A stretch of 64,000 bases of DNA from Pseudomonadota bacterium (GCA_052387815.1 JBQTIU010000022.1:15428-79427), one strand, 5' to 3'. Shown: positions 26,742 through 42,097, numbered from the stretch's first letter. Made by a program: numbers and translations. The notes: a model not told the origin generated them from the letters alone.

Positions 26742-26786
26742 CCGGCCGGTAAGCGAGGCGCCCGCCAACCGACGTTCCGGACAGGC

Positions 26787-28496
26787 TCACACCTTTTCCT
26801 TGGTCATCGCCGTCGCCGCGCGGGCGTCCGCGCGCACCGCCGTGACGGTCTTGCGCGTGGTCAGCCATTCGCGGTCGGTGCGCAACTCGATCACCGCGGG
26901 CTTGCCGGAAGCGATCGCGCGCTCGAGCGCCGGGGCGAACTCCGCGGTCCGCTCGACGATCTCCCCGTGCCCGCCATAGGCGCGGGCGAGGGCGGCGAAG
27001 TCCGGGTTGACGAGGTCGGTGGCGACCACGCGCTCGGGATGCTCGCGCTCCTGGTGCATGCGGATGGTGCCGTACATGCGGTTGTTGAAGACCAGCACGA
27101 TCGGCGCCACGCCGTGCTGCGCGGCGGTCGCCAGTTCCTGGCCGCTCATCATGAATCCGCCGTCGCCGACGCTGGCGAGCACCAGCCGGTCGGGATGGAC
27201 GAGCTTGGCGGCGACGGCGGCCGGCACCGAATAGCCCATGGCGCCGCTGGTCGCCCCGATCTGCCGGGTGGGGCGGCGATGGATGAGGTAGCGCTGCAGC
27301 CAGCCGGTGTGGTTGCCGGCATCGAGGGTGAGGATGAAATCCTCCGGCAGCCGCGCGCGCAGGCCGGCGAGCGCCTGGCCCATGTCGAGCGCCCCGTCGT
27401 AGGGCGTGGGCTCGAGATGGCCGAGATAGTCGCGGCGCGCCGCCTGCGCCCAATCCCGCCAGCGAGTCCCTTCGACCGGCGCGAGTTCGGCCGCGGCGGC
27501 GGCGAAGGCGGCCGCGCCCGACTGGATCGCCAGATCGGGGCGGAAGACCCGCCCGAGCTCGTCGGCGTCGGCATGGACGTGGATCAACGTCTGGCGCGGC
27601 TCGGGCGCCTCGAGGACCGTATAGCCTTGAGTCGTCATTTCGCCGAGCCGGGCCCCGATCACCAACAGAACGTCCGCCTGCTTGGCGCGCTCGACCAGGC
27701 CCGGCGGCGGCGCCGTCCCGAGATCGCCGACAAAAACGGGGCTGTGGTTATCGAACACGTCCTGGCGGCGGAAGGAGCAGCAGGTCGGCAGGCCGTTCGC
27801 TTCGGCGAAGGCGACGATCTGGCGGCAGGCGACATCGTTCCAGCCGGGCCCGCCGACCAGCATCAGGGGTCGCTCGGCCCGCTCCAGCATCGAACGCAGC
27901 CGGGCCATGTCGCTGCGGCCGGGGTGGGCGTGGACGGCGGTGTAGGGTTCGGCGTCGCGGACCGCGACTCGGGTCGCCAGCATGTCCTCGGGCAGGGCGA
28001 GGACCACCGGTCCTGGCCGGCCGGAGGCGGCGACATGGAAGGCGCGGGCAATGTATTCGGGGATGCGCTCGGCGACCTCGATCTGTGCCACCCATTTGGC
28101 GAGCGGCGCGAACATCTTTCGGTAATCGACTTCCTGGAAGGCTTCGCGGTCGATCGCCTGGCGCCCGACCTGGCCGATCAACAGGATCATCGGCGTCGAG
28201 TCCTGGAAGGCGGTGTGGACACCGACCGCGGCGTGGCAGGCTCCGGGGCCGCGCGTCACCAAGCACAGGCCCGGGCGGCCGGTGAGCTTGCCGTAGGCCT
28301 CGGCCATGTTGGCGGCGCCCGCCTCGTGGCGCGCATTGATGAGCCGGATGCGGTGGCGGGCATCGTGGAGCGCGTCGAGCACTTCGAGATAGCTCTCGCC
28401 CGGCACGCAGAACGCCATGTCGGCGCCGTGGATCAGCAACTGGTCGACCACGACCCGGCCGCCGCTGCGCAAGCTTGGCTTGGTCATCGCCACCAC
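26787..28496 (-). CDS. Thiamine-diphosphate-dependent enzyme (acetolactate-synthase-like family)
   Basis: Three-domain ThDP layout: N-terminal PYR domain (FCVPGESYLEVLDAL), central domain, C-terminal GDGGFMMSGQELATA ThDP-binding motif; 569 aa. Confidence 0.85.
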   Translation of the reverse strand: MVAMTKPSLRSGGRVVVDQLLIHGADMAFCVPGESYLEVLDALHDARHRIRLINARHEAGAANMAEAYGKLTGRPGLCLVTRGPGACHAAVGVHTAFQDSTPMILLIGQVGRQAIDREAFQEVDYRKMFAPLAKWVAQIEVAERIPEYIARAFHVAASGRPGPVVLALPEDMLATRVAVRDAEPYTAVHAHPGRSDMARLRSMLERAERPLMLVGGPGWNDVACRQIVAFAEANGLPTCCSFRRQDVFDNHSPVFVGDLGTAPPPGLVERAKQADVLLVIGARLGEMTTQGYTVLEAPEPRQTLIHVHADADELGRVFRPDLAIQSGAAAFAAAAAELAPVEGTRWRDWAQAARRDYLGHLEPTPYDGALDMGQALAGLRARLPEDFILTLDAGNHTGWLQRYLIHRRPTRQIGATSGAMGYSVPAAVAAKLVHPDRLVLASVGDGGFMMSGQELATAAQHGVAPIVLVFNNRMYGTIRMHQEREHPERVVATDLVNPDFAALARAYGGHGEIVERTAEFAPALERAIASGKPAVIELRTDREWLTTRKTVTAVRADARAATAMTKEKV

Positions 28497-28627: not shown

Positions 28628-29122
28628 ATGAACGAGATGATCGAAGAAAAGACGGTCTACGCGGAAGCCATCACCGAGTTCCCGAGCGGCTTCCATCAGA
28701 TGCTCGGCTACCGGATCATGGAATGGACCGATGGCGCGGCGACGCTGGCGCTCACCGTCGGCCCGCGGCACCTGAACCGCGGCGGGGTGTTGCATAGCGG
28801 CGTGCTTGCCACCCTGATCGGCACGGCGGGCGCCTATGCCGGCTGCTACTGCCCCCATGCCGAGCGCGCCCGGCGGGTCGCCGCCATCTCGTTGTCGGTC
28901 CAGTTCGTCGCCCCGCCGAAGAGCGGCGCCGTCCTCGCCCGCGCCAAGGTTCGCGGCGGCGCCAAGAAAATGTACATTGCCTCGGCCGAGGTGCACGACA
29001 CGGCGGGCACGCTGCTGGCGGTAGGCGAGGTCGTTTACCGCTACCAGGCGGGCAGCGAGACGACCGAAGGCGTGCCGCTCGGGCAAGAAGGCGGCGAAAA
29101 GCGCAACACTTCCTTGGGCTAA
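28628..29122 (+). CDS. PaaI/4HBT-family hotdog-fold thioesterase
   Basis: MLGYRIMEWTDGAATLALTVGPRHLNRGGVLHSGVLATLIGTAGA, 164 aa. Confidence 0.8.
   Translation: MNEMIEEKTVYAEAITEFPSGFHQMLGYRIMEWTDGAATLALTVGPRHLNRGGVLHSGVLATLIGTAGAYAGCYCPHAERARRVAAISLSVQFVAPPKSGAVLARAKVRGGAKKMYIASAEVHDTAGTLLAVGEVVYRYQAGSETTEGVPLGQEGGEKRNTSLG
28941..29122 (+). repeat. Left copy of a ~185 bp direct duplication (3' end of the thioesterase gene)
   Basis: 28941..29122 aligns with 39605..39789 with a handful of substitutions and one extra A in the right copy; both copies end exactly at the stop codon. Confidence 0.75.
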
Positions 29123-29234
29123 AGCCGCAGCGTCCGAATTGTCGCTCATCGTCGCCGGATCGTAACCCCTTGGCATCAAAATCCGGCCATCCTAATTGTC
29201 GCCGACCGGACATCACAATTGTCGTTGTACAGCG

Positions 29235-29805
29235 TAGCGGCCTGGCCGCCGCGAGGATCGCTTGGCGCCAGGCTCAGCCGACGCTTGATCCCGCCCGGCT
29301 CGTCTTCCTCGACGAAACCGGAGTGACCACCAACATGGCGTGACGCTATGGGCGGGCGCCGCGCGGCCGGCGGCTGGGATGCTCCGTTCGCCGCGGCCCC
29401 TGGAAAACCACGACGTTCGGCGCCGCCCTGCGCCAGGATGGCATCGCCGCTCCTTGCGTCTTCGATGGACCGATCAACGGCGATGCTTTCCGCGCCTATA
29501 TCCAGCAGTGCCTGGCGCCGACCCTGAGGCCGGGCGACACTGTGATCATGGACAATTTCGGCAGCCACAAAGTCGCCGGCGTCCGGGAAACCATCGAGAG
29601 TGGCGGCGCGACACTATGGTTCCTGCCGCCCTACAGTCCCGACCTCAACTCGATCGAGCAGGCCTTCGCCAAGCTCAAAGCCATCCTGCACAAAGCCGCT
29701 GCCAGAACCCTCGACACCCTCACCACAGCCATCGCCGTCGCCCTCGACCACTTCCCAACATCCGAGTGCGCCGTATACCTCGAAAACTCAGGATATGTTC
29801 CAATC
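29235..29805 (+). mobile_element. IS630-family transposase gene remnant: DDE C-terminal half only, with an in-frame TGA
   Basis: ...LDPARLVFLDETGVTTNMA*RYGRAPRGRRL...GPWKTTTFGAALRQDG...VIMDNFGSHKVAGVRETIESGGATLWFLPPYSPDLNSIEQAFAKLKAILHKAAART...ECAVYLENSGY is a canonical IS630 DDE region. The codon at 29341..29343 is TGA where family members have Arg. No N-terminal HTH part. Confidence 0.7.
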
Positions 29806-29826
29806 AACCGAAAAACGCTCCAGGCG

Positions 29827-30100
29827 GCTCGCCCAATCCATCACCACAACCAAATAGAGAAAGCCGCGCGCCATCGGGATGCAAGTAATGTCCGCCGCCC
29901 ACACCTGGTTCACCCGCTCGATCGCGAGCCCGCCCAAGAGGTAGGGATAAACCTTGTGATTCCCCGCCGGCGCGCCGATCGCCGCACGACAGCGTCTCAT
30001 CGCTTCGCGATGAGACGCTCCCACAGCCGCTCGAACCCCAGCGCTGGCCCGATGCGCCGTGTCGCGGTCTTCGTCGCCGTGTCGTTGTCGAGCGCGCCCA
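29827..30100 (-). mobile_element. IS3-family transposase OrfB (integrase core N-terminal part) remnant
   Basis: Minus-strand ...REAMRRCRAAIGAPAGNHKVYPYLLGGLAIERVNQVWAADITCIPMARGFLYLVVVMDWASR matches the IS3-family OrfB block (HKTYPYLLRGL...NQVW..DITYIPM..GFLYLV..MDW.SR). Homology stops abruptly at ~29827, where the IS630 fragment abuts on the other strand. Confidence 0.6.
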
Positions 30101-30447
30101 GCACCATCGTCTTGTCGGCGAAGCGCGCCCGAGCGCCGCAGCCGTTCCAGTTGTCCGCTCGCCTGCAGCTCTTCCCACCGCCCGAGCGTGGCGATCACCC
30201 GTTGGCGGACCTGCCGCCCGGTGCGCACGCTCCCCACGATCGGCAAGTAGGCGCGCCCGCCGGAGTCCTCTTGCGGAAGTACAACGGTGCCTCCGTGTGG
30301 TGCGCACGGAATCACCGAACACAACGCCGAAATCAGCAAAAATAAAGCACCGACGTGGCACTATAAATTCAGCCCCTTCCACCCTCGCCTCTCAACCTAT
30401 CAAGGGGTTACGCCATGCCACCCGTCGGGAACCGATGAAGATGGGTG

Positions 30448-30840
30448 AGAGCGGATGACCTCCGCCTCGCGCACCCGCTCGTAGCGTGCATCCAAGATCA
30501 GATACGGATCGGGCTCGACCAGCCGCCGGCTGGCAAACGCCGCCAGGCCCGCGTCCAGGGTCTTGTTGATGGCGCTGATCGCGGAGGCTGAGAACTGGTG
30601 CCCGCAGAGTTCTTCCGTAATCGCCTTGATCTTGCGGCTCGACACGCCCTGGACGTACATCTCCGCCAACCTCCCGACCAGTGCCTTCTCCGAGCGCCGG
30701 TAGCGAGCGAACAGCGCGGTCGAAAATCGCCCTTCGCGATCCTGCGGCACCCGCAGCTCGAGCTTGCCCACCCGCGTGATCAGAGTCCGGCCGTAATAGC
30801 CGGCCCAGTCGCCAAGACGTCCCGCCGTTCGCCCGCCGGA
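30448..30840 (-). mobile_element. IS256-family transposase internal fragment (residues ~80-210 equivalent)
   Basis: Minus-strand ...DWAGYYGRTLITRVGKLELRVPQDREGRFSTALFARYRRSEKALVGRLAEMYVQGVSSRKIKAITEELCGHQFSASAISAINKTLDAGLAAFASRRLVEPDPYLILDARYERVREAEVIRS is near-consensus IS256 family. Both termini are missing: stop codon upstream, and divergence after VIRS. Confidence 0.75.
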
Positions 30841-30934
30841 TCAGGCAGAAATGGACCACGACGATGACCAGCACGATGGGCAGCAGCTGGGTGAGCCGCA
30901 GCACGACGTAGGCGCTCATCGAGCCGGGCTTCAT
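30841..30934 (-). pseudogene. N-terminal stub of an ABC (Dpp/Opp-type) permease truncated by the IS256 fragment
   Basis: MSAYVVLRLTQLLPIVLVIVVVHFCL resembles DppB/OppB N-termini (MLRYILRRLLQLIPTL...); there is no downstream body. Confidence 0.35.
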
Positions 30935-31100
30935 GAGCGCATCAATCGGCGGCTCGCCGGTTCACCGGCGCTCCCCGCCGGGCCGGGGCGGCGCCATCGC
31001 GGGCCTCCTTGCATCGTCGCGACCCGGGTTCACGCGGGGCAACCGCGGCTCGAAGATACGGCGACGGTACCGACTCCCGCCCGCCGAGTTCAAGCGACGG

Positions 31101-31868
31101 TCAAAGCAGGGCCTTGCGCAGGCCGCCGTCGATCTGCAGGGTCGTTCCAGTGACGTACGAACCCTTCGGCGAGGCGAGGAGCGCGGTCATCGCCGCGATG
31201 TCCTCGGGCCGGCCGATCCGCCCGACCGGAATATCGGCCGCGAGGTCCTTCATCGCCTTGCCCGACTGCTCGCTCACCTTGTGGAGCCGCGGGGTCTCGA
31301 TCAAGCCCGGGCAGATGGTGTTGATGGTGATGCCGAGCGGCCCCAATTCCAGGGATAGCGTCTTGGCGAGGCCGATGACGCCGGCCCAGGTCGCGACCGA
31401 CAGGCCGAAGCCGACGATCGGCTGCACCGCCGACAAGGCCGTGATGTTGACGATGCTGCCCCGGCCGCGCCGGCGCATGTGCGGCACCACCGCCCGGATC
31501 ATACGCAGCACGCTCAATAGGTTCTGCTCCACCGCCTTGCCCCAGGCGACGTCGTCGAAGGCGAGGCTGTCGCCGAGCGGCGGCGCCCCGTCGTTGTTGA
31601 CCAGGATGTCGACCCCGCCGAGCCGACGCACCGCCTCCTCGACGATGCGCGCGCAGTCCTCGGCCCGGCGGATGTCGCCCTGGACGGCGGCCACCCGGGC
31701 TCCGGTCTCGCGCGCCACTCGATCGGCCGCCTTGCCCAGCGCCGGCTCGCGGCGGGCGGTCATGCAGACCGCCGCACCCTCCGCGGCCAGGGTCCGCGCG
31801 ATGGCGAGGCCGATCCCTTGGCTCGCGCCGTTGACGATCGCGATCTTGCCGCCGAGTTCGAGGTCCAT
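31101..31868 (-). CDS. Short-chain dehydrogenase/reductase (SDR)
   Basis: GKIAIVNGASQGIGLAIA, NNDG, catalytic region, 255 aa. Confidence 0.85.
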   Translation of the reverse strand: MDLELGGKIAIVNGASQGIGLAIARTLAAEGAAVCMTARREPALGKAADRVARETGARVAAVQGDIRRAEDCARIVEEAVRRLGGVDILVNNDGAPPLGDSLAFDDVAWGKAVEQNLLSVLRMIRAVVPHMRRRGRGSIVNITALSAVQPIVGFGLSVATWAGVIGLAKTLSLELGPLGITINTICPGLIETPRLHKVSEQSGKAMKDLAADIPVGRIGRPEDIAAMTALLASPKGSYVTGTTLQIDGGLRKALL

Positions 31869-31870
31869 GG

Positions 31871-32728
31871 CTACCCCTTCAATGTGGCGAGGAACCGCTC
31901 CGCGTTCGAGCGGAACACCTTCTCCAGCACCGCGTCGGCGAAGCCGAGGCCCTGCCAGTCCCGCACCAGCCGCTCGTAGGTGAACAGCGGATAGTCGGCC
32001 CCGAACATCACGCGGTCCTGCAACCGGCGCGCGATCTCGTGCTTGAGGTCGTCGCTCAGGTAGCGCGGCGACCAGCCGTGGAGCTCGTACCAGACGTTCG
32101 GCTTGTGCAGCATCACCGCGATCATCTCGGTCTGCCAGGGCCAGGCCGGTCGCGCGGCGACGATCGTGAGCTTGGGATGACGCGCCGCCACGGCGTCGAG
32201 ATGGCGCGGGTGGCAGCTGTCGAGGGTGATCCCCGCGCCCCCCGGCAGGCCGGCGCCGAGGCCGGTGGTGCCGACGAAGATCAGCGCCGGCATCTTGGCC
32301 TCGATGCAGGTCTTGTAGAACGGGTCCCAGGCGGGATCGCTCGCCGGCACGCCGCCCGACCCCGACACGGCGAGGCCGACGAAGCCCGAGCCCGCCGCGA
32401 GGCAGCGCTTGAACTCGTCGAGCGCCGGCGTGCCGAGCTCCGGCTGGAAATGCACCCAGTTGCCGATGATCACGTCGGCATGGGCGCGCTGGGTGGCGAA
32501 GCCGTAGTCGTGGAGGTCGCGCGCCTGATCGACCGGCAGGAACTTCGTGAACCCGAAATCCAGGATCACGCGCAGCTCGGCCCGCCGGAAGTCCTCCGCC
32601 ATTTCTGCTTCGGTCGCGTATTGCGGTCGCGAGCGCCAGGTATGCTCCTGTCGTGCCAGCTCGTCCTCGGTCCTGAGCGGATAGCCCCGTTTCGTCTTCC
32701 AGTGCGAGTGCATGTCGATCAGCGGCAT
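31871..32728 (-). CDS. Amidohydrolase-2 (PF04909) family metal-dependent hydrolase/decarboxylase
   Basis: MPLIDMHSHW..., TIM-barrel amidohydrolase-2 signature residues, 285 aa. Confidence 0.75.
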   Translation of the reverse strand: MPLIDMHSHWKTKRGYPLRTEDELARQEHTWRSRPQYATEAEMAEDFRRAELRVILDFGFTKFLPVDQARDLHDYGFATQRAHADVIIGNWVHFQPELGTPALDEFKRCLAAGSGFVGLAVSGSGGVPASDPAWDPFYKTCIEAKMPALIFVGTTGLGAGLPGGAGITLDSCHPRHLDAVAARHPKLTIVAARPAWPWQTEMIAVMLHKPNVWYELHGWSPRYLSDDLKHEIARRLQDRVMFGADYPLFTYERLVRDWQGLGFADAVLEKVFRSNAERFLATLKG

Positions 32729-32757
32729 GAGGCGTTCCTTTCTCCGGTGGCGGCGTC

Positions 32758-33465
32758 TCAGGAGAGCCCGAGATAGGTCCGACGGATGTCCGCGCTCTCG
32801 CGCAGTTCGGCGCCGGTGCCTGCGACGACCACGCGCCCGGTCTCGAGCACGTAGACGCGGTTGGCGATCGCCAGCACCTGGTGCGCGTTCTGCTCGGCGA
32901 CGACGATGGTGACGCCCTCTTCGTTCAGCCGGCGGATGACGTGGAAAATGTCGCGCACGATCCGCGGCGCGAGCCCGAGGGACGGCTCGTCGAGAACGAG
33001 GAGGCGCGGCACGCTCATCAGCGCCCGGCCGATCGCCAGCATCTGCTGCTCGCCGCCGGAGAGCAGGCCGGCCGGCTGCCGGCGCCGCGCGGCGAGGATT
33101 GGAAAATAGGACTCGACCCGCTCGAGCGTGCGGCGGAATTCGCGGCGCGCGGCCGGCAGATAGGCTCCGACCTCCAGGTTCTCGGCCACGGTGAGGTCCG
33201 GGAACAGCAGGCGGCCTTGCGGAACCTGGACCATCCCGGCGGCTACGATCTGCTCGGGCGCCAGGCCCCGGATCGGTCGTCCCTCGAGCATGATCCGCCC
33301 GGCATGGACCGTGGTCAGGCCGGACAGGGTGCGCGCCAGCGTCGTCTTTCCGGCGCCGTTGGTTCCCAGGATGCCGACGATCGCGCCGCGCTCGACCGAC
33401 AGCGCGACGTCGCGCAGGACGTCAATACGCCCGTAGCCGGCAGAAAGGCCCGCGATCTCAAGCAT
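32758..33465 (-). CDS. livF: Branched-chain-amino-acid-type ABC transporter ATP-binding protein (LivF-like)
   Basis: GTNGAGKTTL, LSGGEQQMLAIGRAL, 235 aa. Confidence 0.85.
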   Translation of the reverse strand: MLEIAGLSAGYGRIDVLRDVALSVERGAIVGILGTNGAGKTTLARTLSGLTTVHAGRIMLEGRPIRGLAPEQIVAAGMVQVPQGRLLFPDLTVAENLEVGAYLPAARREFRRTLERVESYFPILAARRRQPAGLLSGGEQQMLAIGRALMSVPRLLVLDEPSLGLAPRIVRDIFHVIRRLNEEGVTIVVAEQNAHQVLAIANRVYVLETGRVVVAGTGAELRESADIRRTYLGLS

Positions 33466-34231
33466 GGGGCTCGCTCTCGCCGAGATAGGCCTCGATCACG
33501 CGCGGGTCCGCCTGGACCTCGACCGGCGTCCCTTCGGCGATTTTCTCCCCGTGGTCGAGGACCGTGATGCGGTCGGCGAGCGCCATGATGACGCGCATGT
33601 TGTGTTCGACCACGACCAGGGTGATGCCGTGCTCGCCGGCGAGCGCGCGGCAGGTGCTCACCAGGTCCTGCGCCTCTTGGGCGGCCATGCCGGACGCCGG
33701 CTCGTCGAGCATCAGCAGGCGCGGGTCGCCGAACAGGGCGCGGACCAGGTCGACCTTCTTCAGCACGCTGAAGGGCAGGTCGCCGGCGAGCGCGTCGCGG
33801 TAGGGCGTAAGACCGAACCGTTCGATCAGCGCCTCCGCCCCGCCGATCGCCGCGCGCTCCGTCCTCGCCATCGCCGGCGTGCCGATCAGGTTGTGCCAGA
33901 AGCCCGCATTGTGCCGTTCGTAGCTGGCGGTGAGCACGTTGGTCAGCACGGTCTGGTCGGGGAAGACCTCGGCGTGCTGGAAGGTGCGGCCGATGCCGAG
34001 CGCGGCGATGCGGTGGCCCGGAAGCGTCTGCATCTCGCGCCCGTCGAACCGGATCCGCCCGGCGCTCAGCGCGACGAGGCCCGAGGCCGCGTTGATCAAC
34101 GACGTCTTGCCGGCGCCGTTCGGACCGATCAGGCCGTGGATCTCGCCCTGCTCGATGGCGAACGAGACGTCCGACAGGGCAGCGAGACCGCCGAAGGTCA
34201 CCGACAGCCGCTCGACGGCGAAGTAGCTCAC
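33458..34231 (-). CDS. livG: Branched-chain-amino-acid-type ABC transporter ATP-binding protein (LivG-like)
   Basis: GPNGAGKTSL, C-terminal LivG extension. Proposed GTG start (complement 34231..34229) preceded by GGAGGG and overlapping the LivM stop (GTGA). Confidence 0.8.
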   Translation of the reverse strand: MSYFAVERLSVTFGGLAALSDVSFAIEQGEIHGLIGPNGAGKTSLINAASGLVALSAGRIRFDGREMQTLPGHRIAALGIGRTFQHAEVFPDQTVLTNVLTASYERHNAGFWHNLIGTPAMARTERAAIGGAEALIERFGLTPYRDALAGDLPFSVLKKVDLVRALFGDPRLLMLDEPASGMAAQEAQDLVSTCRALAGEHGITLVVVEHNMRVIMALADRITVLDHGEKIAEGTPVEVQADPRVIEAYLGESEPHA

Positions 34232-35205
34232 CGCGGCCCTCCGCTCGCCGCGCCGGCCGTGCCGCGCGCCAGGAGGCGCTTGAGCGCCGGCCACAGCCCG
34301 ATGAGCCCGCTCGGCATGACCATGAGCACCAGCAGCAGGAGGCCGCCGTAGACCAGCTCGTTGTATTCCTTGAACCCGCGCAGCAGCTCGGGCAGCACGG
34401 TGAGGACCGCGGCGCCGATCACCGATCCGGCGACCGAGCCGAGGCCGCCGACGACGATGAAGGTCACGTGCCGGATCGAGGTCCAGACGCCGAATTCCAG
34501 CGGATCGATGAAGCGCACCAGCGTCGCGAACATGGCGCCGGCGACGCCAGCATAGACCGCAGCCACCACGAAGGCGATCAACTTCACCCGGGTGACCGGG
34601 ATGGCCAGGGTCTCAGCCGTCGCTTCGCTCACCCGGATGCTGTTGAACGCTCGGCCGATCGGCGAGTTGAGCAGCCGCCAGGCGGCGTAGAGCGCCATGA
34701 AGGCGACCGCGAGAATCACGTAGTAGAGCGACAGGTCGCTGGCCAGGCGGACCCCGAATAGCGACGGGCGGGGCACCGCGAGGCCGCGCACGCCCCCGGT
34801 CACCGACGGCAGCGACTCGATGATGATCTGCATGATCTCGAGAAAGCCGAGGGTGACGACGGCGAGGTAGAAGCCCCTCAGGCGCAGCGCCGGCAGGCCG
34901 AGCACGACCCCGAACAGGCCGGAAACGGCGCCGGCCAGCGGCAGAGCCAGCCAGAAGGTGAGGCCGAGCTGGGTGAGGAGGAACGCGCTCGTATAGGCGC
35001 CGATCGCCATGAAGGACGAGTGGCAGAGCGAGATCTGGCCGGCGTTGCCGGTGAGCAGATTGAGGCCGATGGCCAGGACGACGTTGATCAGCGCCAGCGA
35101 CAGCAGGTAGTGGTGGTAGGAGCCGAGGAACCACGGGCCGACCAGGAGCAGCGCCACGAGCCCGGCCAGGCCCGCCCGTCGCAGCGAAGCTTCGTCGGGC
35201 CGCAT
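34228..35205 (-). CDS. livM: Liv-type ABC transporter permease (LivM-like)
   Basis: Polytopic membrane protein, 325 aa, LivM-like order in the operon. Confidence 0.85.
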   Translation of the reverse strand: MRPDEASLRRAGLAGLVALLLVGPWFLGSYHHYLLSLALINVVLAIGLNLLTGNAGQISLCHSSFMAIGAYTSAFLLTQLGLTFWLALPLAGAVSGLFGVVLGLPALRLRGFYLAVVTLGFLEIMQIIIESLPSVTGGVRGLAVPRPSLFGVRLASDLSLYYVILAVAFMALYAAWRLLNSPIGRAFNSIRVSEATAETLAIPVTRVKLIAFVVAAVYAGVAGAMFATLVRFIDPLEFGVWTSIRHVTFIVVGGLGSVAGSVIGAAVLTVLPELLRGFKEYNELVYGGLLLLVLMVMPSGLIGLWPALKRLLARGTAGAASGGPR

Positions 35206-35212
35206 GCCTGGC

Positions 35213-36091
35213 TCAGACCCGGCGCGCTTCGGCCTGGCCGAACAGGCCGTGCGGCCGCACCAGCAGGATGAGAAGCAGCAGGACGAAGGCGACCGTCTCC
35301 TTGAACAGGCCGCCGAAATAGGCGCCGCCGAAGACCTCGAGCACGCCGAGCAGCATGCCGCCGATGACCGCGCCGACCAGGCTGTGGAATCCGCCCAGGA
35401 TCGCCGCCACGAAGGCCTTGAGGATGACGCCGCCCATCTCGGCGTGGATACCGATGAGGGGCGCGACGAGAATCCCGGCGACGGCCGCGATCATCGTGCT
35501 GATGGCGAAGGTGATGGCAAACATCCGGTTGACCCTGATCCCCATGAGCTGAGCCGCCACCGGGTTCTGCGCCACGGCGCGCATCGCCTTGCCGACCAGG
35601 CTGCTGCGGAAGAACGCGGCCAGCGCGGCCATCAGCACCAGGGAGCAGCCGATCACCCACAGGTACTGCGGATTGATCCGCAGGCTGCCGACGGCGAGGG
35701 GCGCATCCCCGAACGGTGTGGCGATGGTCGACACTTGCTCCTGCCACGACAGACGCAGGACGTTCTTGATCATCAGCCCGACCGCCAGGGTCGCGATGAC
35801 GACGGTGAAGGCCGGCGCGCGGGCGAGCGGCCGGATCAGGCCGCGCTCGAGGGCGATCCCCACCCCGCCGGTGATCAGCAGCGTCAGGACGAACACCCAG
35901 GGGTAGGACAACTTGGCCAAGGTGCTGAGGAACAGCGCGATGTACGCGCCGAGCGTGACCAGCTCGCCCTGGGCGAAGTTGACCACCGAGGTACCCTTGA
36001 ACGCGAGCACCAGGCCCAGCGCGACGAGGGCGTAGATGCTGCCGGTGCTGAGGCCGGCAATCGCCAGCTGCAAGGCGACCTCAAGAGTCAT
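35213..36091 (-). CDS. livH: Liv-type ABC transporter permease (LivH-like)
   Basis: MTLEVALQLAIAGLSTGSIYALVALGLVLAFKGTSVVNFAQGE... canonical LivH N-terminus; start ATG complement 36091..36089 inside listed ORF 35213..36214. Confidence 0.85.
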   Translation of the reverse strand: MTLEVALQLAIAGLSTGSIYALVALGLVLAFKGTSVVNFAQGELVTLGAYIALFLSTLAKLSYPWVFVLTLLITGGVGIALERGLIRPLARAPAFTVVIATLAVGLMIKNVLRLSWQEQVSTIATPFGDAPLAVGSLRINPQYLWVIGCSLVLMAALAAFFRSSLVGKAMRAVAQNPVAAQLMGIRVNRMFAITFAISTMIAAVAGILVAPLIGIHAEMGGVILKAFVAAILGGFHSLVGAVIGGMLLGVLEVFGGAYFGGLFKETVAFVLLLLILLVRPHGLFGQAEARRV

Positions 36092-36170
36092 GACGAGGCC
36101 CCGGCCGGCGCGGGGCGGCGAGAGGCCCGGCGGCGGGCCGACCGGCCGCCGGACCCGCCGCCCAGTGCGT

Positions 36171-37391
36171 CTATTTCTTGTACTCGGCGAGGATCTCGCT
36201 GTCGCGCGCCGCATCCCACCGCACCGGGACCCAGTGCTGGTTGATCACCACCATCATCTGCATTCGCAGGTTGCCGATGTGATGCCAGTCGGTGAACGTG
36301 CGCGGCGTTGCGATCTCGCTCACCTTGTAGTCCTTGATCGTCTCCAGCGCCTTGACCAGGCCGTCGCGGGTGAGCCCCCGGCCCGCCCGGCGCAGTCCCT
36401 CGGCGACCACATGCATGTCGGAGTAGGAGAGGATGTCGAACAGGTTCGGCCGGCCCTTGATCTCGGTCGGATTGAGCTTCGACCAGGCCTCCTTGAACTT
36501 GAGCATGTCGGGATGCACCGAGTCGAGGAAGACGCCGGTCAACCATCCGCCCATGAACCCCTCGGCGGAATAGCCGGCGGCGGCGATCAAGGAGTTGTCG
36601 ACCATCGCGCCGCTGCCGAAGATTGGTTGGCGCAGCCCCAGCTCCCGCGCCTGGCGGAGGATGATCGACGCCTCGGTGACGTGCCCGAGGGTCATGATCA
36701 CCTCGGGGTTCGCTTCCTTGATCTTCAACAGCTGCGGCGTGAAATCCTTGTCGCCGACCTTGAACTCGGCGCGCAGCACGGGCTTCATGTTGTACCACTT
36801 GGCGAGCAGCCGCTCGGTCGCGTCGCCCTCGTTCTTCGGGAACTCGTCGCTGCCGCTCAGGATGGCGATCTTCTTCGCCTGCAGGAACTGGGTGATGAAC
36901 TCGGCGTAGAGCTCGCCGTAGCGCGCCGCCTCGGTCGTGCCGCCGCGGAAGAAATACTTGTTGAACGGCCGCGTCACCGGGGGCGCTGAGGCGAAGGAAA
37001 CGTAGTTCGGCACCTTGAGGTCGCGCAGATATTCGAGCGTGCCGACCGTCGGGTTGCTGCCCGAGACGCCGAAGATCATGAATGCCTTGTCCTGCTCGAC
37101 CAGCTTCTTGACCGCCGCCAGCGCCCTGGCCGGCGAGAAGCCGTCGTCCTCGAACTCCACCCTGATCTTCCGGCCATGGATGCCGCCCGCGTCGTTGATC
37201 TCCTTGACCGCGACCGCCAGGCCGTCGCGCCCGCCGAGGCCGATATAGGCGGCCGGCCCGGTGAGCGGGCCGTAGGCGCCCAAGACGATGGTGTCGCTGG
37301 TTACGCCGTCTTGCGCGCTCGCCGGCGATCCGGCGAGGGCAACCGCCGCGGCGAAGGCGGCGGCGATGATTCGATCGGTACTCTTGCGCAT
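36171..37391 (-). CDS. Liv-type (family 4/6) periplasmic substrate-binding protein
   Basis: Signal peptide MRKSTDRIIAAAFAAAVALAGSPASA, LivK/ligand-binding-receptor fold motifs, 406 aa. Confidence 0.85.
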   Translation of the reverse strand: MRKSTDRIIAAAFAAAVALAGSPASAQDGVTSDTIVLGAYGPLTGPAAYIGLGGRDGLAVAVKEINDAGGIHGRKIRVEFEDDGFSPARALAAVKKLVEQDKAFMIFGVSGSNPTVGTLEYLRDLKVPNYVSFASAPPVTRPFNKYFFRGGTTEAARYGELYAEFITQFLQAKKIAILSGSDEFPKNEGDATERLLAKWYNMKPVLRAEFKVGDKDFTPQLLKIKEANPEVIMTLGHVTEASIILRQARELGLRQPIFGSGAMVDNSLIAAAGYSAEGFMGGWLTGVFLDSVHPDMLKFKEAWSKLNPTEIKGRPNLFDILSYSDMHVVAEGLRRAGRGLTRDGLVKALETIKDYKVSEIATPRTFTDWHHIGNLRMQMMVVINQHWVPVRWDAARDSEILAEYKK

Positions 37392-37469
37392 GGGGTTCCT
37401 CCTCTCTCCTTGGGTCCTCGTTCGATGCGCCGCGGTCCGGAGCGGCGCCGACTTCGCTGTCCTCCCCGC

Positions 37470-39122
37470 CTAGCGGGCGTGCTTGCGGTCGGCCGCGCGG
37501 CGGCCGATGACGATGTCCCTGAGCGGTCCCTTCTGGATCTTGCCGGTCGGGGTCCGCGGCAGCTCGCTCATCAGCTCCAGGAATTCGGGCAGCTTGTAGG
37601 TCGCGATGCGCGGCCGCAGGAAGTCGTTGATCTCGTCGAAGGTGATCGTCTGCCCGGCCTTGGGCACGATGCAGGCGCAGGTGCGCTCGCCCAGCCGCGG
37701 ATCGGGCAGCCCGACCACGGCGGCGTCCATCACCTTGGGGTGCTGGTAGAGCACCTCCTCGATCTCCCGCGGATAGATATTGGCTCCGCCGCGGATGATC
37801 ATCTCCTTCTTGCGCCCCGCGATCCGTAGATAGCCCTTTTCGTCGAACACGCCGAGATCGCCGGTGCGGAACCAGCCGTCCTTGGTGAAGCTGCGCCGGT
37901 TGACGTCGGGATTGTTGTAATAGCCGATGGTGACTGAGGGTCCGTAGGTCAGGATTTCGCCGACCGTCCCCGGCGGGCACTCGACGCCGTTGTCGTCGAC
38001 CACCTTGTTCCGCATCGCGGGCAGCGAGCGTCCGACCAGCCCGCACACGGATTCCGGGTGCTCCGAGAGCCGCGTATGCGCCTGCGAGCCGCATTCGAGC
38101 ATGCCGTACATCTCCAGGAGATGGCCGGGGATCCGGGCACGAATCTCGCGGATCACCTCGATCGGACAGGACGCCCCGCCGGTCATCATCACCTGGAGCG
38201 AACGGAGATCGTACTTGCCGAAGTCGGGCGCGTGGAGCAGCGACACCAGGTGCGCCGGCGCACAGCAGAAATGCGTCACCTTCTCCTTCTGGATCAGCTC
38301 CAGCGCCCGCTCGGCCCTGAAGATGTCGAGGAGCACTACGGTGCACCCGGCGAAGATCGCCTGCAGCACGTTGAACAGGCCCCAGTTCAGGCCGACCGGC
38401 AGGAAGATCAGGAACACGCTGTTCGACGTGATCGCCTGGCCTTCGTTGAGGAAGCGGCCCGCGCAATTCGTGGTGTTGTGCAGGTGGAGCACGGCTTTGG
38501 GGTCGCCCGTCGTGCCCGAGGTGAAGGCGGCCCGCACCAGGTCGTTGCCGTGCGGCCGGCGGCGGCGCAGCTCCGCCTCCGGCACCGCGAGCGGTGCGTC
38601 GTGGTCGAGGAAGCCCCTCAGATCGAAGGCGTCCTCCGGCACGGCGTCGCCAACGAACATCACGTGCTTCAGCGCCGGCAGGCGCGGCCGCAGCTCGCGG
38701 ATCATCGCCGGGTAGTCGAACCGGCGGAACCCGCTCGGCGCGATCACCGCTGAGGCGCGCGTGAAGCCGAGGATGAACTCGACCTCGCGGGCGCGGAAAT
38801 CGCTGTGGTACTGGCAGAACGGCACCCCGGCCATCATCGCCGCGTTGATCGCAACCACGAACTCGCTCCAGTTCGGCAGCTGGATCGCGATCACGTCGTC
38901 GGCGGTCAGGCCGAGCTTGACGAAATGCGCCGCCAGACGCTGGGCGCGGCGGTGAAGCTCGGCATAGGTCAACCGGCAGCGGCCGTCGATCACCGCGATC
39001 TTGTCCGGGGTGCTCGCCGCGACGCGATCGAGTTCCTCGTTGCTGGTCGTCTGGACCCAGTACCCGGCGCGCTCGAACTCGCGCATGCGCTCGGGCGGGA
39101 TCTGGGGGTCGTCTATCCGCAC
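37470..39122 (-). CDS. AMP-dependent synthetase/ligase (acyl-/aryl-CoA ligase)
   Basis: TSGTTGDPKAV AMP-binding motif, YGMLECG, GWFRTGDLG, PRTPTGKIQK; 550 aa. Confidence 0.85.
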   Translation of the reverse strand: MRIDDPQIPPERMREFERAGYWVQTTSNEELDRVAASTPDKIAVIDGRCRLTYAELHRRAQRLAAHFVKLGLTADDVIAIQLPNWSEFVVAINAAMMAGVPFCQYHSDFRAREVEFILGFTRASAVIAPSGFRRFDYPAMIRELRPRLPALKHVMFVGDAVPEDAFDLRGFLDHDAPLAVPEAELRRRRPHGNDLVRAAFTSGTTGDPKAVLHLHNTTNCAGRFLNEGQAITSNSVFLIFLPVGLNWGLFNVLQAIFAGCTVVLLDIFRAERALELIQKEKVTHFCCAPAHLVSLLHAPDFGKYDLRSLQVMMTGGASCPIEVIREIRARIPGHLLEMYGMLECGSQAHTRLSEHPESVCGLVGRSLPAMRNKVVDDNGVECPPGTVGEILTYGPSVTIGYYNNPDVNRRSFTKDGWFRTGDLGVFDEKGYLRIAGRKKEMIIRGGANIYPREIEEVLYQHPKVMDAAVVGLPDPRLGERTCACIVPKAGQTITFDEINDFLRPRIATYKLPEFLELMSELPRTPTGKIQKGPLRDIVIGRRAADRKHAR

Positions 39123-39336
39123 TCGGTGTTCCCTCCCGCCGCGATCAGGTAGACCGCGCCGCGGCCGCGAACCCTCGCCTGGCGTCTGATCGGTCAGTTA
39201 GCATTCGCCGGTCTTTCCCGTCAAGGACGGGCGGTCGGCCGCTCCGCCCCGTGCGATCCGCACCCGCGTCGGTCCCGGCGCGCGAGCGATCGGACGGTCG
39301 CGGATCCCGGCGGCGCCGGGGGATGACCGTCGCCGC

Positions 39337-39600
39337 TCAGCGCACCACCAGATCGAGTGGCCGGGCCGAAAGCAGCGCGTTGCCGGATTCGGTCACCACC
39401 ACCGACGCGCCGGGATACATCGCGATGCCGGCGCTCGAATCCATCAGGATCATGTGCAGGAAGAAGACCATGTTGGGCGCGGCCACGATCGGGTTGCCGG
39501 CGTAGAGCGTCGGCCAGTCCATCCAGTTGGGCGCGAAGGTCGTGCCGAGCGAATAACCGCACGCATTCAGCCGATACTCGCGCATTCCCGCGCCGGCCGC
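39337..39600 (-). pseudogene. C-terminal fragment of an M24-family (creatinase/prolidase-type) peptidase
   Basis: Minus-strand ...MREYRLNACGYSLGTTFAPNWMDWPTLYAGNPIVAAPNMVFFLHMILMDSSAGIAMYPGASVVVTESGNALLSARPLDLVVR* resembles the M24 C-terminus (GMVFTIEPG...G.RIED.V.VTE.G.E.L). Upstream it runs straight into the antisense of the thioesterase fragment, so the N-terminal ~300 aa are absent. Confidence 0.55.
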
Positions 39601-39604
39601 GACG

Positions 39605-39789
39605 CGCGCCAAGGTCCGCGGCGGCGCCAAGAAAAAATGTACATCGCCTCGGCCGAGGTGCACGACACGGCGGGCACGCTGCTGGCGGTAGGCGAGGTCG
39701 TCTACCGCTACCGGGCGGGCAGCGAGACGACCAAAGGCGTGCCGCTCGGGGAAGAAAGCGGCGAAAAGCGCAACACTTCCTTGGGCTAG
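39605..39789 (+). pseudogene. Right copy of the thioesterase 3' end (gene fragment; direct repeat of 28941..29122)
   Basis: ...KMYIASAEVHDTAGTLLAVGEVVYRYRAGSETTKGVPLGEESGEKRNTSLG*; an extra A (AAAAAA vs AAAAA) shifts the frame relative to the intact copy; no 5' part. Confidence 0.75.
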
Positions 39790-39815
39790 CCGGCCCTTCG
39801 GGCTCTTAGGGAGGC

Positions 39816-40607
39816 CTAGCGCCCCTTGAACACCGGTTTGCGCTTGGCGAGGAAAGCGCGGGTGCCTTCCCGAAAATCCTCGGTATCGAAGCAAGCATAG
39901 CCCTCTTCGAGCTCGCGCCCCGTGAGCGGGCGCGGGTCGGCGAGGCGGCGCGCGAATTTCTTGTGCCAGCGATTGCACAAGGGCGCGCCGTCGGCGATGC
40001 GGCGGGCGGCGGCATAGGTCTCCTTCACGACCTCGGCGTCGGGGACGACGCGGTTGACCAGGCCTTTCTCCTTGGCCTCGGCGGCGCCGAACACGCGGCC
40101 CTCGAGCAGGATTTCGAGCGCCGCGGCGCGGCCCACGAGGTCGATGAACGCCTCGAGCTCCGGGTAGGCCATGATCACGCCGATGCGGTTGATCGGCACG
40201 CCGAAGCGCGACGATTGGCCGGCGATGCGCAGGTCGCACATGCTCGCCAGCTCCAGGCCCCCGCCCACGCACAGCCCGTGGATCATCGCCACGCTGGGGT
40301 GGCGGCAATCGCGGAGCGCGTGCATGGCCGCATGCATCAGCTTGCCGTAGGCCGCCGCCTGCCGGGGGTCGTTGCGCATGGTCTCGAACTCGGCGATGTC
40401 GGCCCCCGGCGCGAATGCCTTCTCCCCCGCGCCGCGCAGCACGATGCAACCGACCCGGTCCTCGCGCTCCAGCCCCCGGATGACCTCGCCCAGCCGCTTC
40501 CACATCGGCGCGTTGAGCGCGTTGAGCTTGTCCGGGCGATTGAGCGTCACGGTGACGATGTCGGCGTCGCGCTCGACCAGGATGACGTCGCTCTCCGCCG
40601 CCGGCAT
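39816..40607 (-). CDS. Enoyl-CoA hydratase/isomerase (crotonase) family protein
   Basis: LNRPDKLNAL..., crotonase-fold motifs, 263 aa. Confidence 0.85.
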   Translation of the reverse strand: MPAAESDVILVERDADIVTVTLNRPDKLNALNAPMWKRLGEVIRGLEREDRVGCIVLRGAGEKAFAPGADIAEFETMRNDPRQAAAYGKLMHAAMHALRDCRHPSVAMIHGLCVGGGLELASMCDLRIAGQSSRFGVPINRIGVIMAYPELEAFIDLVGRAAALEILLEGRVFGAAEAKEKGLVNRVVPDAEVVKETYAAARRIADGAPLCNRWHKKFARRLADPRPLTGRELEEGYACFDTEDFREGTRAFLAKRKPVFKGR

Positions 40608-40612
40608 GGCGC

Positions 40613-41815: not shown

Positions 41816-41916
41816 GAGTCGCAGTGTCCACAGCAAGTTGAGACGTCCGGGATTTGTAGCACATCGGATGTCCCTGGCGTTACCGATGTCCGGGAGCCGC
41901 CCGCCGCGCGCTAGCG

Positions 41917-41945
41917 CTGACCCTCGCCGATCGAGGGTGTATAAT
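41917..41945 (+). promoter_or_regulatory. Sigma-70-like promoter (-35 CTGACC, 17-bp spacer, -10 TATAAT) facing the upstream ORF and FAD/Fe-S oxidoreductase
   Basis: Perfect TATAAT at 41940..41945, which is unusual in this GC-rich context, with CTGACC 17 bp upstream. Confidence 0.4.
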
Positions 41946-41984
41946 TCGCCCGCCACGCCGTTTGGCTGCCGCCGGAGGCCCCGC

Positions 41985-42089
41985 ATGTCGCGCCTAGTGA
42001 TCGCCGCCGTCCTCGCCCTCGCCCGGTCGACGCCCGCCGGCGCCAAGGCGCCGCGCGGGCCGCTGGCGGTCTCGGCCAGCTTCGAGTAG
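41985..42089 (+). CDS. Candidate 34-codon upstream ORF / leader peptide (MSRLVIAAVLALARSTPAGAKAPRGPLAVSASFE)
   Basis: GGAGG 9 nt upstream of ATG 41985. Stop is 8 nt before the ATG of the large oxidoreductase, which itself lacks a Shine-Dalgarno. Signal-peptide-like hydrophobic core. Different frame from the downstream gene. Confidence 0.3.
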   Translation: MSRLVIAAVLALARSTPAGAKAPRGPLAVSASFE

Positions 42090-42097
42090 CCGCAACC

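What the first reader, a model, noticed from the sequence alone, without database searches (positions are those of the whole stretch)
28941..39789. A ~10.5-kb segment bounded by ~185-bp direct repeats of the thioesterase 3' end
The last ~185 bp of the PaaI-thioesterase gene (28941..29122) recur at 39605..39789 in the same orientation, with a few substitutions and one extra A that breaks the frame. The right copy has no 5' part and is fused back-to-back to a C-terminal fragment of an M24 peptidase gene. Both copies end exactly at the stop codon. Everything between them looks like acquired and partly decayed DNA: IS630, IS3 and IS256 remnants, a permease stub, and an intact SDR / amidohydrolase-2 / livFGMHK / acyl-CoA-ligase cassette. 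This is the same architecture as the small cassette at 12 kb, on a larger scale.
Basis: seen in the sequence. Interest (0 to 1): 0.6.

Follow-up and report, generated by a model that had tools for sequence, protein, structure and literature searches.

The report
Gene-end repeats bracketing an inserted operon
A 10.7-kb block carrying a nutrient-uptake operon sits between two copies of the last 183 bases of a thioesterase gene, which looks like the scar of a DNA circle that recombined into that gene's end; this is a familiar kind of scar and matters mainly as a tidy example.

Summary
Window 28940-29122 (the 3' end of an intact 164-aa PaaI/4HBT thioesterase) recurs at 39605-39789 in the same orientation. 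Identity is 175 of 185 aligned columns: 8 substitutions and a 2-nt (not 1-nt) A-run insertion. Both boundaries are sharp, and the 3' boundary falls inside the stop codon (TAA vs TAG).

The interval holds 110 unassigned bp, truncated IS630, IS3 and IS256 remnants, an intact 8-gene operon and an 88-aa C-terminal M24 peptidase fragment. The operon is acyl-CoA ligase, livKHMGF, amidohydrolase_2 and SDR. It recurs as a unit in three other contigs with different neighbours. The M24 fragment meets the right repeat at a GCGCGC microhomology. No recombinase gene and no permease stub were found.

Distant relatives keep the TPP enzyme, thioesterase and aminotransferase as neighbours without this block. 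Its composition, however, is native-like, and no close relative with an empty site was available.

Best reading (about 0.5): a Campbell-type single-crossover insertion of a circle carrying a thioesterase 3' end. The architecture parallels e14 at icd/icdC in E. coli, but without an integrase.

It is a new example of a known kind, of low to moderate interest.

The parts
26787..28496 (-). TPP-dependent enzyme (569 aa); conserved left-hand neighbour of the thioesterase
   Evidence: Pfam TPP_enzyme_N/M/C. 68-75% identical orthologues lie next to the thioesterase in L001-L004 and L009.
28628..29122 (+). Intact PaaI/4HBT hotdog thioesterase (164 aa; NCBI start gives 161 aa)
   Evidence: Pfam 4HBT. 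P0001 is 100% identical, MGQ0662888.1. The C-terminal tail motif GEKRNT.LG is conserved in homologues.
28940..29122 (+). Left repeat copy (183 bp): in frame, completes the thioesterase, ends at TAA
   Evidence: Alignment and sequence.
29123..29232 (.). 110 bp of unassigned DNA with three AATTGTCG boxes, lying between the thioesterase stop and the IS630 remnant
   Evidence: No similarity to anything fetched. Motif count is 3 here against 0.27 expected in the whole window.
29233..29826 (+). IS630-family transposase remnant. It lacks about the first 140 codons and has an in-frame TGA at 29341-29343.
   Evidence: Six-frame Pfam finds DDE_3 profile positions 1-145 of 146, E 2e-32. blastn to annotated IS630 transposases on plasmids covers window 29236-29826. 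Sequence read directly.
29823..29916 (-). IS3-family integrase-core (rve) fragment, cut by the IS630 end
   Evidence: Weak rve hit, E 4e-4, below the Pfam cutoff. The motif NQVWAADITCIP...VVVMDWASR is visible in the translation.
30444..30846 (-). IS256-family (Transposase_mut) internal fragment
   Evidence: Pfam PF00872 profile positions 48-181 of 379, E 3e-41. About 75% identical to ISRm5-like transposases on Sinorhizobium plasmids.
31101..39122 (-). Intact 8-gene operon. In transcription order: acyl-CoA ligase 37470-39122, LivK-type binding protein 36171-37391, permeases 35213-36214 and 34228-35205, ATPases 33458-34294 and 32758-33465, amidohydrolase_2 31871-32728, SDR 31101-31868.
   Evidence: Pfam. 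The same eight genes in the same order occur in three other contigs with different neighbours. Logan contigs L006 and L011 are 99.75-99.95% identical.
39340..39609 (-). C-terminal fragment (about 88 aa plus the stop at 39337-39339) of an M24 creatinase/Xaa-Pro-dipeptidase-type gene. The 5' part is missing.
   Evidence: Best hits are PF00557 proteins at up to 74% identity. The alignment shows homology up to the Ala-Arg codons at 39604-39609. A single-sequence Pfam scan of the fragment gives no hit.
39604..39609 (.). Junction microhomology GCGCGC, shared by the end of the M24 fragment and the start of the right repeat
   Evidence: Overlap of M24 homology with thioesterase homology.
39605..39789 (+). 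Right repeat copy (185 bp): orphan thioesterase 3' end with a +2 frameshift in the A-run at about 39632-39633, ending at TAG
39816..42166 (-). Right flank: enoyl-CoA hydratase (39816-40607) and class-V aminotransferase (40613-42166)
   Evidence: Pfam. The aminotransferase lies next to the thioesterase in L001 and L002, at 79-82% identity. L005 is 100% identical.

Best explanation
The two repeats are the scar of a Campbell-type, single-crossover insertion. A circular DNA of about 10.7 kb recombined with the resident thioesterase gene. The circle carried the last ~183 bp of a thioesterase allele, together with IS debris, the 8-gene ligase/LIV-type uptake/amidohydrolase/SDR operon and a truncated M24 gene. 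A single crossover inside the shared 183 bp duplicates that segment.

The left copy stays joined to the gene's 5' part and keeps the thioesterase intact. The right copy is left as an orphan next to the original downstream DNA (ECH and aminotransferase). It has since picked up a +2 frameshift.

The joint between the M24 fragment and the thioesterase fragment, at a GCGCGC microhomology, is an illegitimate-recombination joint. It either closed the circle in the donor, or later deleted the 5' halves of a full-length second thioesterase copy and of M24.

No dedicated recombinase is needed; host homologous recombination suffices. The repeats still share a 56-nt and a 31-nt identical block. The block could therefore loop out again and leave an in-frame hybrid thioesterase.

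Shown: the repeat, its sharp limits, the gene content, the microhomology, and the absence of a recombinase gene. Inferred: the circle, the crossover and the reversibility.
For: - The repeat is exactly the segment expected to be duplicated by a single crossover. It lies in direct orientation, with an intact gene at one end and an orphan 3' fragment at the other. Identity drops to random (27-28%) immediately outside.
- Homology ends in the stop codon. This fits two thioesterase alleles that share coding sequence but have different downstream neighbours. The region downstream of this thioesterase is variable among relatives.
- The frame-corrected right copy still encodes the conserved tail GEKRNTSLG and keeps a stop. 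Each copy carries one derived residue at a conserved position: Q for R in the left copy and K for E in the right. The differences are therefore not simply decay of one copy.
- TPP enzyme, thioesterase and aminotransferase are direct neighbours in L001 and L002.
- The operon is a self-contained unit found in three other contexts.
- Nested, truncated IS630, IS3 and IS256 remnants sit at one end.
- The M24/thioesterase joint has a 5-6-nt microhomology.
- The known e14 insertion at icd/icdC in E. coli K-12 has the same anatomy: 165 bp, an 11-nt identical stretch at the 5' edge, and an end at the stop codon (PMC13626634).
- Both repeat-end junctions are seen in an independent short-read assembly.
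Against: - No empty site, donor locus or circle junction was observed. The closest thioesterase relatives are only 55-61% identical.
- The operon is compositionally native. The donor would have to be a close relative, or the block would have to be old.
- 183 bp at 96% identity is a short substrate for RecA-dependent single crossover.
- The synonymous excess expected for two functional alleles is not significant. Four of 8 substitutions are silent; P(>=4) is 0.25 under random substitution.
- The model needs an extra illegitimate event to explain the M24 joint.
Confidence: 0.5

Rival explanations
1. The interval is a decayed site-specific integrative element of the e14/phage-21-at-icd type. The element carried its own copy of the target gene's 3' end next to attP. 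A tyrosine or serine integrase crossed over in the 11-nt identical stretch CGCGCCAAGGT at the 5' edge of the repeat. The integrase module was later destroyed by IS insertions and deletions.
For: The anatomy matches e14/icd/icdC almost point for point. The direct repeats measure 183 bp here and 165 bp in e14. Each begins with an 11-nt identical stretch followed by scattered mismatches. Each ends at the stop codon, with an intact hybrid gene on one side and an orphan fragment on the other (PMC13626634). The IS debris lies where e14 keeps its integrase-side genes.
Against: No integrase, excisionase, phage or conjugation gene or remnant appears in six-frame Pfam of 29101-31120. The rest of the interval is filled by the operon. 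Coding sequence of a truncated M24 gene runs right up to, and overlaps, the putative core, where an attP arm would be expected. Substitutions are half non-synonymous here, against 10 of 12 synonymous in icd/icdC. The similar 12-kb cassette also lacks any recombinase.
Confidence: 0.15
2. The duplication arose in situ during a replication or repair accident, such as fork collapse at a convergent gene junction followed by microhomology-mediated template switching. Foreign or distant DNA was copied in. Replication then resumed 183 bp upstream of the break, creating a long 'target duplication' in one step.
For: Two inserts in one 64-kb window both sit at convergent gene ends, have 175-185-bp direct repeats and lack a recombinase. 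The 12-kb cassette junction carries an inverted and a direct snippet of the neighbouring SDR gene, which resembles templated insertions. There is microhomology at the M24 joint.
Against: At formation the copies would be identical, yet they now differ by 4.4% plus an indel, and the selected left copy carries a derived residue at a conserved site. A duplication ending exactly at the stop codon would be a coincidence. The SDR snippets in the 12-kb case are only 79-88% identical to their supposed template, whereas the repeat there is 98% identical. The insert is a mosaic of old IS debris plus an operon, not a single templated patch.
Confidence: 0.15
3. Assembly or phasing artefact of the metagenome-assembled contig. 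The real population would have one chromosomal thioesterase 3' end, plus a second context in another strain or molecule. The assembler threaded both into one path through the 56-nt identical block.
For: The source is a MAG contig of 191,887 bp. The k=31 Logan assembly breaks at the shared k-mers and cannot phase the copies. One Logan contig stops unexpectedly at 39539.
Against: The M24/thioesterase joint shares only 11 identical bases with the left context before the first variant, so it cannot be a k-mer mis-join. Each copy carries its own variants within 12 nt of its outer junctions. The thioesterase protein is absent from the Logan gene set although its neighbours are present, as expected if the gene is split by a real repeat there. 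A 10.7-kb circle without replication genes is not a plausible stable molecule.
Confidence: 0.07

Closest known systems
Cryptic prophage e14 (and phage 21) inserted in the 3' end of icd in E. coli K-12, leaving the icdC pseudogene
   Same: An intact hybrid gene lies at one end and an orphan 3' fragment of the same gene at the other. The repeats are direct and of similar length (165 bp in e14, 183-185 bp here). Each begins with an 11-nt fully identical stretch. Identity is 93% in e14 and 95-96% here. Homology ends at the stop codon. Recombination between the copies would regenerate a functional chimeric gene (PMC13626634, which cites Hill et al. 1989).
   Different: e14 has an integrase and excisionase (intE, xisE) and phage genes. 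This interval has none. icd/icdC differences are 10 of 12 synonymous, against 4 of 8 here. Here the far end of the insert is a truncated M24 gene rather than an att arm.
Campbell-type (single-crossover) integration of circular DNA by host homologous recombination, as with suicide plasmids or excised circles
   Same: It duplicates exactly the shared homologous segment as direct repeats around the insert. It needs no element-encoded recombinase and is reversible by recombination between the repeats. This rests on established knowledge and is consistent.
   Different: This is a natural example in which the homology is only a 183-bp gene end. The circle itself and its origin are inferred, not observed.
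IS-bounded composite transposons and IS-mediated acquisition
   Same: IS630, IS3 and IS256 sequences accompany the cargo operon.
   Different: The IS copies are truncated, belong to three different families and lie at one end only. The flanking duplication is 183 bp rather than the 2-9 bp made by these transposases (family knowledge).
The 12-kb cassette in the same window (DUF433 plus NTase/HEPN genes between 175-bp repeats)
   Same: It has direct repeats of about 180 bp at a convergent gene junction, no recombinase, and both flanking genes intact.
   Different: Its repeat spans the stop codon and the overlapping 3' ends of both genes. The insert is 1.4 kb. Its junction contains inverted and direct SDR snippets.

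Membership tests
Site-specific integrative element that rebuilds the 3' end of its target gene (e14/phage 21 at icd type) | Direct repeats consisting of the target gene's 3' end: an intact gene at one end and an orphan 3' fragment at the other | tested here: met
   The same layout is seen in MG1655.
Site-specific integrative element that rebuilds the 3' end of its target gene (e14/phage 21 at icd type) | Element-encoded integrase (tyrosine or serine recombinase) inside the repeats | tested here: not met
   Pfam on all ORFs and on the six-frame translation of 29101-31120 finds only DDE_3, Transposase_mut and a weak rve hit.
Site-specific integrative element that rebuilds the 3' end of its target gene (e14/phage 21 at icd type) | Short identical crossover core at the 5' edge of the repeat, flanked on the element side by non-coding att arm DNA | tested here: inconclusive
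   An 11-nt identical stretch is present at the 5' edge. The adjacent element-side DNA, however, is M24 coding sequence that overlaps the stretch.
Site-specific integrative element that rebuilds the 3' end of its target gene (e14/phage 21 at icd type) | Differences between the copies dominated by synonymous changes, because both were functional coding ends | tested here: inconclusive
   Four of 8 substitutions are silent; P is 0.25 under random substitution. In icd/icdC 10 of 12 are silent.
Campbell-type insertion by homologous recombination | Direct repeats equal to the full extent of shared homology, with identity falling to background at both edges | tested here: met
   Identity is 175 of 185 inside the repeat and 27-28% in the 60 nt outside each edge.
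Campbell-type insertion by homologous recombination | Existence of an empty site and/or a circular form or donor locus carrying the single repeat | not testable with these tools
   No relative has more than 61% thioesterase identity, and no raw reads were available.
Transposon or IS insertion | Element ends with terminal inverted repeats and a short target duplication (2-9 bp for IS630, IS3 and IS256) | tested here: not met
   The IS copies are truncated and confined to one end. No matching inverted repeat exists at 29123 versus the IS630 end. The duplication is 183 bp.
Simple tandem duplication | The sequence that follows each copy is the same, because whole segments are repeated head to tail | tested here: not met
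   Downstream of the left copy lie 110 unassigned bp and then IS630. Downstream of the right copy lies ECH. Identity between the two downstream stretches is 27%.
HAAT/LIV-type ABC uptake operon with acyl-CoA ligase (the cargo) | Peripla_BP_6 binding protein, two BPD_transp_2 permeases, two ABC ATPases (one with BCA_ABC_TP_C) and an AMP-binding ligase | tested here: met
   Pfam. The gene order is conserved in three other contigs. The substrate was not tested.

The most novel reading that the evidence does not exclude
The repeat-bounded block may be a recombinase-free 'homology-anchored' mobile unit. A portable copy of a gene's last ~180 bp would let host recombination loop a cargo operon out as a circle and drop it into any genome with that gene, without breaking the gene. 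A second insert in the same 64 kb, at another convergent gene junction, also has ~175-bp repeats and no recombinase. This would point to a recurrent, lineage-wide route of cassette gain, by homologous capture or by template switching that leaves ~180-bp duplications.
Probability: 0.12. Interest if true: 0.55.

Novelty: new member of a known kind. Interest (0 to 1): 0.27.

Why it matters
If the reading is right, this is a clean natural example of a metabolic operon added to a catabolic locus without damaging the target gene. The operon combines uptake, CoA activation, an amidohydrolase and an SDR. The insertion would have used a short stretch of gene-end homology and no element-encoded recombinase, and it would leave a structure that can still revert.

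For annotation there are two practical points. The 91-aa 'hypothetical protein' called at 39340-39612 is a truncated M24 remnant whose called start lies inside the repeat. The orphan thioesterase end is a pseudogene fragment.

The finding does not open a new class of system. Its main value is as a worked case, and as a pointer to check whether ~180-bp-flanked inserts are common in this lineage.

Tried and rejected
- **Search for an empty site or close relatives.** I scanned genome contigs and metagenome contigs with the thioesterase and ran a protein search. Only 50-61% identical relatives turned up. They show the conserved neighbours but cannot show an empty site.
- **Exact-protein look-ups.** These found only short Logan contigs of a near-identical strain. 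They do not phase the repeat. Look-ups of the thioesterase, the TPP enzyme and the 12-kb SDR found nothing.
- **A family of short stand-alone M24 C-terminal proteins.** The many 82-156-aa hits suggested this. I rejected it because the two cases examined were a gene cut by a contig end and a frameshift-split gene.
- **IS630 inserted at the TA of the stop codon.** Rejected: the IS630 copy lacks its 5' third, and no terminal inverted repeat pairs 29123 with the IS630 end.
- **The 110 bp after the left copy as a diverged ECH or aminotransferase end.** No similarity was found.
- **The left 12-kb repeat continuing as a diverged epimerase fragment.** Not supported.
- **Composition as evidence of foreign origin.** The operon is indistinguishable from the flanks.
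- **Second thioesterase-end fragments in relatives.** None were found.
- **Plasmid collection.** It holds no near relative of the region.
- **RNA genes.** There is no Rfam family hit in 26000-43000 and no tRNA in the window.
- **Promoter and terminator scans.** These were uninformative.

Full report
**1. Observation**

The last 183 bp of the thioesterase gene (28940-29122) recur at 39605-39789 on the same strand.

- A base-by-base comparison gives 175 identical positions of 185 aligned columns. There are eight substitutions and a two-base insertion in an A-run: left AAGAAAATG, right AAGAAAAAATG. The frame is broken either way.
- Identity in the 60 nt outside each end is 27-28%, the random expectation for this composition (0.286).
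- The chance probability of such a match is about 10^-73 after correcting for all position pairs in the window.
- Homology stops after the TA of the stop codon (TAA left, TAG right).

**2. Is it an assembly artefact?**

The window comes from an NCBI metagenome-assembled contig of 191,887 bp, labelled 'Pseudomonadota bacterium' (thioesterase MGQ0662888.1).

- Short-read Logan contigs from run SRR34758880 carry a near-identical strain. L005 equals window 39759-41209 at 100% identity. L006 equals 29092-33054 at 99.75%. L011 equals 33984-39539 at 99.95%.
- L006 and L005 end exactly at the only 31-mer shared by the two repeat ends (29091-29121 / 39758-39788). This is what a k=31 graph does at a true two-copy repeat. 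Both contexts are present in those reads: repeat followed by the IS630 remnant, and repeat followed by ECH.
- The thioesterase protein is not on record from that sample, although its neighbours are. That is consistent with the gene being split by the repeat there too.
- The joint between the M24 fragment and the right copy shares only 11 bases with the left context before the first variant. It cannot be a k-mer mis-join.
- What I could not check is the phase of the two copies across the 56-nt identical block (28979-29034). I leave about 7% for an artefact.

**3. Anatomy**

- Left flank: a TPP-dependent enzyme (26787-28496, minus strand) and the intact 164-aa 4HBT/PaaI thioesterase.
- After the stop codon come 110 bp that match nothing I could fetch. 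They contain three AATTGTCG boxes.
- Next is an IS630-family transposase remnant (29233-29826). Its DDE_3 domain is complete, but it lacks about the first 140 codons and has an in-frame TGA.
- Then a short IS3 rve fragment on the opposite strand (about 29823-29916, a weak hit) and an internal IS256 fragment (30444-30846).
- No integrase, resolvase, excisionase or permease stub appears in the six-frame Pfam scan of 29101-31120.
- From 31101 to 39122, all on the minus strand, lies an intact operon: acyl-CoA ligase, a LivK-type binding protein, two permeases, two ATPases, an amidohydrolase_2 enzyme and an SDR.
- Upstream of the ligase is an 88-aa C-terminal fragment of an M24 (creatinase/Xaa-Pro dipeptidase type) gene, with its stop at 39337-39339. 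Its best relatives are PF00557 proteins at up to 74% identity.
- Alignment shows M24 homology running to the Ala-Arg codons at 39604-39609. It therefore overlaps the first five bases of the right repeat in a GCGCGC microhomology.
- Right flank: 26 nt, then ECH (39816-40607) and a class-V aminotransferase, both on the minus strand.

**4. Is the interval an insertion?**

- In the nearest relatives available (thioesterase only 55-59% identical), the TPP enzyme, thioesterase and aminotransferase are neighbours. In L001 and L002 they are direct neighbours.
- The stretch after the thioesterase is variable elsewhere. L003 has a small ORF, a CoA-transferase and then ECH. L004 and L009 have about 4.5 kb of unrelated genes.
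- The eight-gene operon occurs with the same content and order in three other contigs (ligase 84%, 76% and 76% identical). The neighbours differ each time, and none has an M24 or a thioesterase alongside.
- These two facts, plus the IS debris, support acquisition.
- Composition does not support it. Operon GC is 0.686 and GC3 is 0.89-0.93, matching the flanks. The tetranucleotide correlation of 0.979 is only just below the range for 8-kb flank chunks (0.983-0.992). Only the IS debris is lower in GC, at 0.654.
- A donor of similar composition, or long residence, is therefore required.

**5. What the differences between the copies say**

- The three substitutions in the hotdog-domain part are all third-position and silent. 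Four lie in the C-terminal tail and change residues. The stop is kept as a stop.
- With only eight changes the silent excess is not significant. P(>=4 silent) is 0.25 under random substitution with the observed spectrum.
- The tail is not junk. Homologues conserve YRYR.GSE..EGVPL....GEKRNT.LG.
- The frame-corrected right copy still encodes this motif.
- The left (functional) copy has Q where 10 of 11 homologues have R. The right copy has K where most homologues have E.
- Both copies therefore carry derived states. This fits two diverged alleles somewhat better than one-sided decay, but the evidence is weak.

**6. Mechanism**

The layout is the formal product of a single crossover between a chromosome and a circle that share only that 183-bp segment, which is Campbell-type integration. 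The features that fit are:

- direct repeats exactly as long as the shared gene end;
- an intact gene on the left and an orphan end on the right;
- native DNA beyond the right copy and foreign DNA beyond the left copy.

It also explains why homology stops at the stop codon. Two alleles share coding sequence but not their downstream neighbours, and that downstream region is variable among relatives.

The M24/thioesterase joint is a separate illegitimate event at a microhomology. Either it closed the circle in a donor whose order was thioesterase, IS debris, operon, M24. Or the circle carried a longer piece of the thioesterase, and a later deletion removed the 5' halves of M24 and of the second thioesterase copy.

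I rate this reading, in either variant, at about 0.5. The copies still share 56-nt and 31-nt identical blocks downstream of the frameshift. Host recombination could therefore loop the block out and leave an in-frame hybrid gene. That step is inference.

**7. Rivals**

- *A decayed e14-like integrative element.* I fetched the E. coli K-12 locus and aligned icd with icdC. It has 165 bp of homology beginning with an 11-nt identical stretch, 12 differences (10 silent), and an end at the stop codon (PMC13626634). The anatomy here is strikingly parallel, including an 11-nt identical stretch at the 5' edge. However, there is no integrase or remnant, and M24 coding sequence occupies the place of an att arm. 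I rate it 0.15.
- *A one-step replication or repair accident with template switching.* It is suggested by the second insert at 12 kb (see section 8). It fits poorly with 4.4% divergence, with a derived residue in the selected copy, and with a boundary exactly at the stop codon. I rate it 0.15.
- *Artefact.* I rate it 0.07 (see section 2).
- *Simple tandem duplication and IS transposition.* Both fail their defining features. The two copies have different downstream sequence. The IS copies are truncated and one-sided, and the duplication is 183 bp rather than 2-9 bp.

**8. The 12-kb cassette**

- The repeats 12057-12231 and 13599-13773 (three mismatches) bracket a 1.4-kb insert. It encodes a DUF433 protein and a nucleotidyltransferase/HEPN pair.
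- Unlike the main case, the repeat runs through the SDR stop codon. It covers the overlapping 3' ends of both convergent genes, so both stay intact.
- The right repeat is preceded by an inverted piece (88% identical) and a direct piece (79% identical) of the SDR 5' region.
- The resemblance is real: about 180-bp repeats, a convergent junction and no recombinase. The two structures are not the same architecture in detail.

**9. Verdict**

- The structure is best filed as a new example of a known kind of scar, a gene-3'-end duplication from Campbell-type insertion, as at icd/icdC. It is not a member of the integrase-bearing element family, because that defining feature was tested and not met.
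- Interest is low to moderate. The more novel reading is a recombinase-free, homology-anchored mobile unit, or a recurrent ~180-bp-duplicating insertion process in this lineage. It is not excluded, and I put it at about 0.12.

Noticed in passing
window 12057-13773: A second insert is bounded by 175-bp direct repeats (three mismatches) that span the overlapping 3' ends of a convergent SDR (11377-12144) and an epimerase (13670-14668). The cargo is a DUF433 gene plus a nucleotidyltransferase/HEPN pair. The right repeat is preceded by inverted (13519-13576) and direct (13567-13624) pieces of the SDR 5' region, at only 79-88% identity.
   Followed up: partly
window 12321-12366: Two tandem 21-nt boxes, AAGTGTTACCMATGTSCCCGG, lie 25 nt apart just upstream of the DUF433 gene and occur nowhere else in the window. 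They may be an operator for the toxin-antitoxin-like cassette.
   Followed up: partly
window 29123-29232: 110 bp of unassigned DNA lie between the thioesterase stop and the IS630 remnant. They contain three AATTGTCG boxes (three here and one elsewhere, against 0.27 expected in the whole window). Their origin is unknown.
   Followed up: partly
window 55211-58411: A tandem duplicate of a ~1.78-kb unit. The coding parts are 74-88% identical, while a 70-nt upstream stretch is 96% identical (55211-55280 / 57036-57105).
   Followed up: no
window 39509-39539 (end of Logan contig L011): The independent short-read contig stops 65 nt before the right repeat. Its last 31-mer lies in the most conserved M24 motif (FAPNWMDWP). 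A k-mer shared with another organism's M24 gene in that sample is a guess and was not tested.
   Followed up: no
window 39340-39612 (NCBI MGQ0662897.1): The public annotation calls a 91-aa 'hypothetical protein' with a TTG start that lies inside the right repeat. It is a truncated M24 C-terminal remnant and not a stand-alone gene. The many 82-156-aa M24 hits in the protein database are contig-end or frameshift fragments, judging from the two cases I checked.
   Followed up: yes
window 29046-29119; L001-L004, L007, L009: This PaaI thioesterase subfamily has a conserved C-terminal tail (YRYR.GSE..EGVPL....GEKRNT.LG) beyond the hotdog domain. It sits next to a TPP-dependent enzyme in every relative whose contig reaches that side (L001-L004, L007, L009). 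No function for the tail is known to me.
   Followed up: no
window 30265-30287 vs L006: Six of the ten differences between the window and the near-identical Logan strain cluster in 23 nt of the IS debris, including a 1-nt indel. Elsewhere the two are 99.9-100% identical.
   Followed up: no
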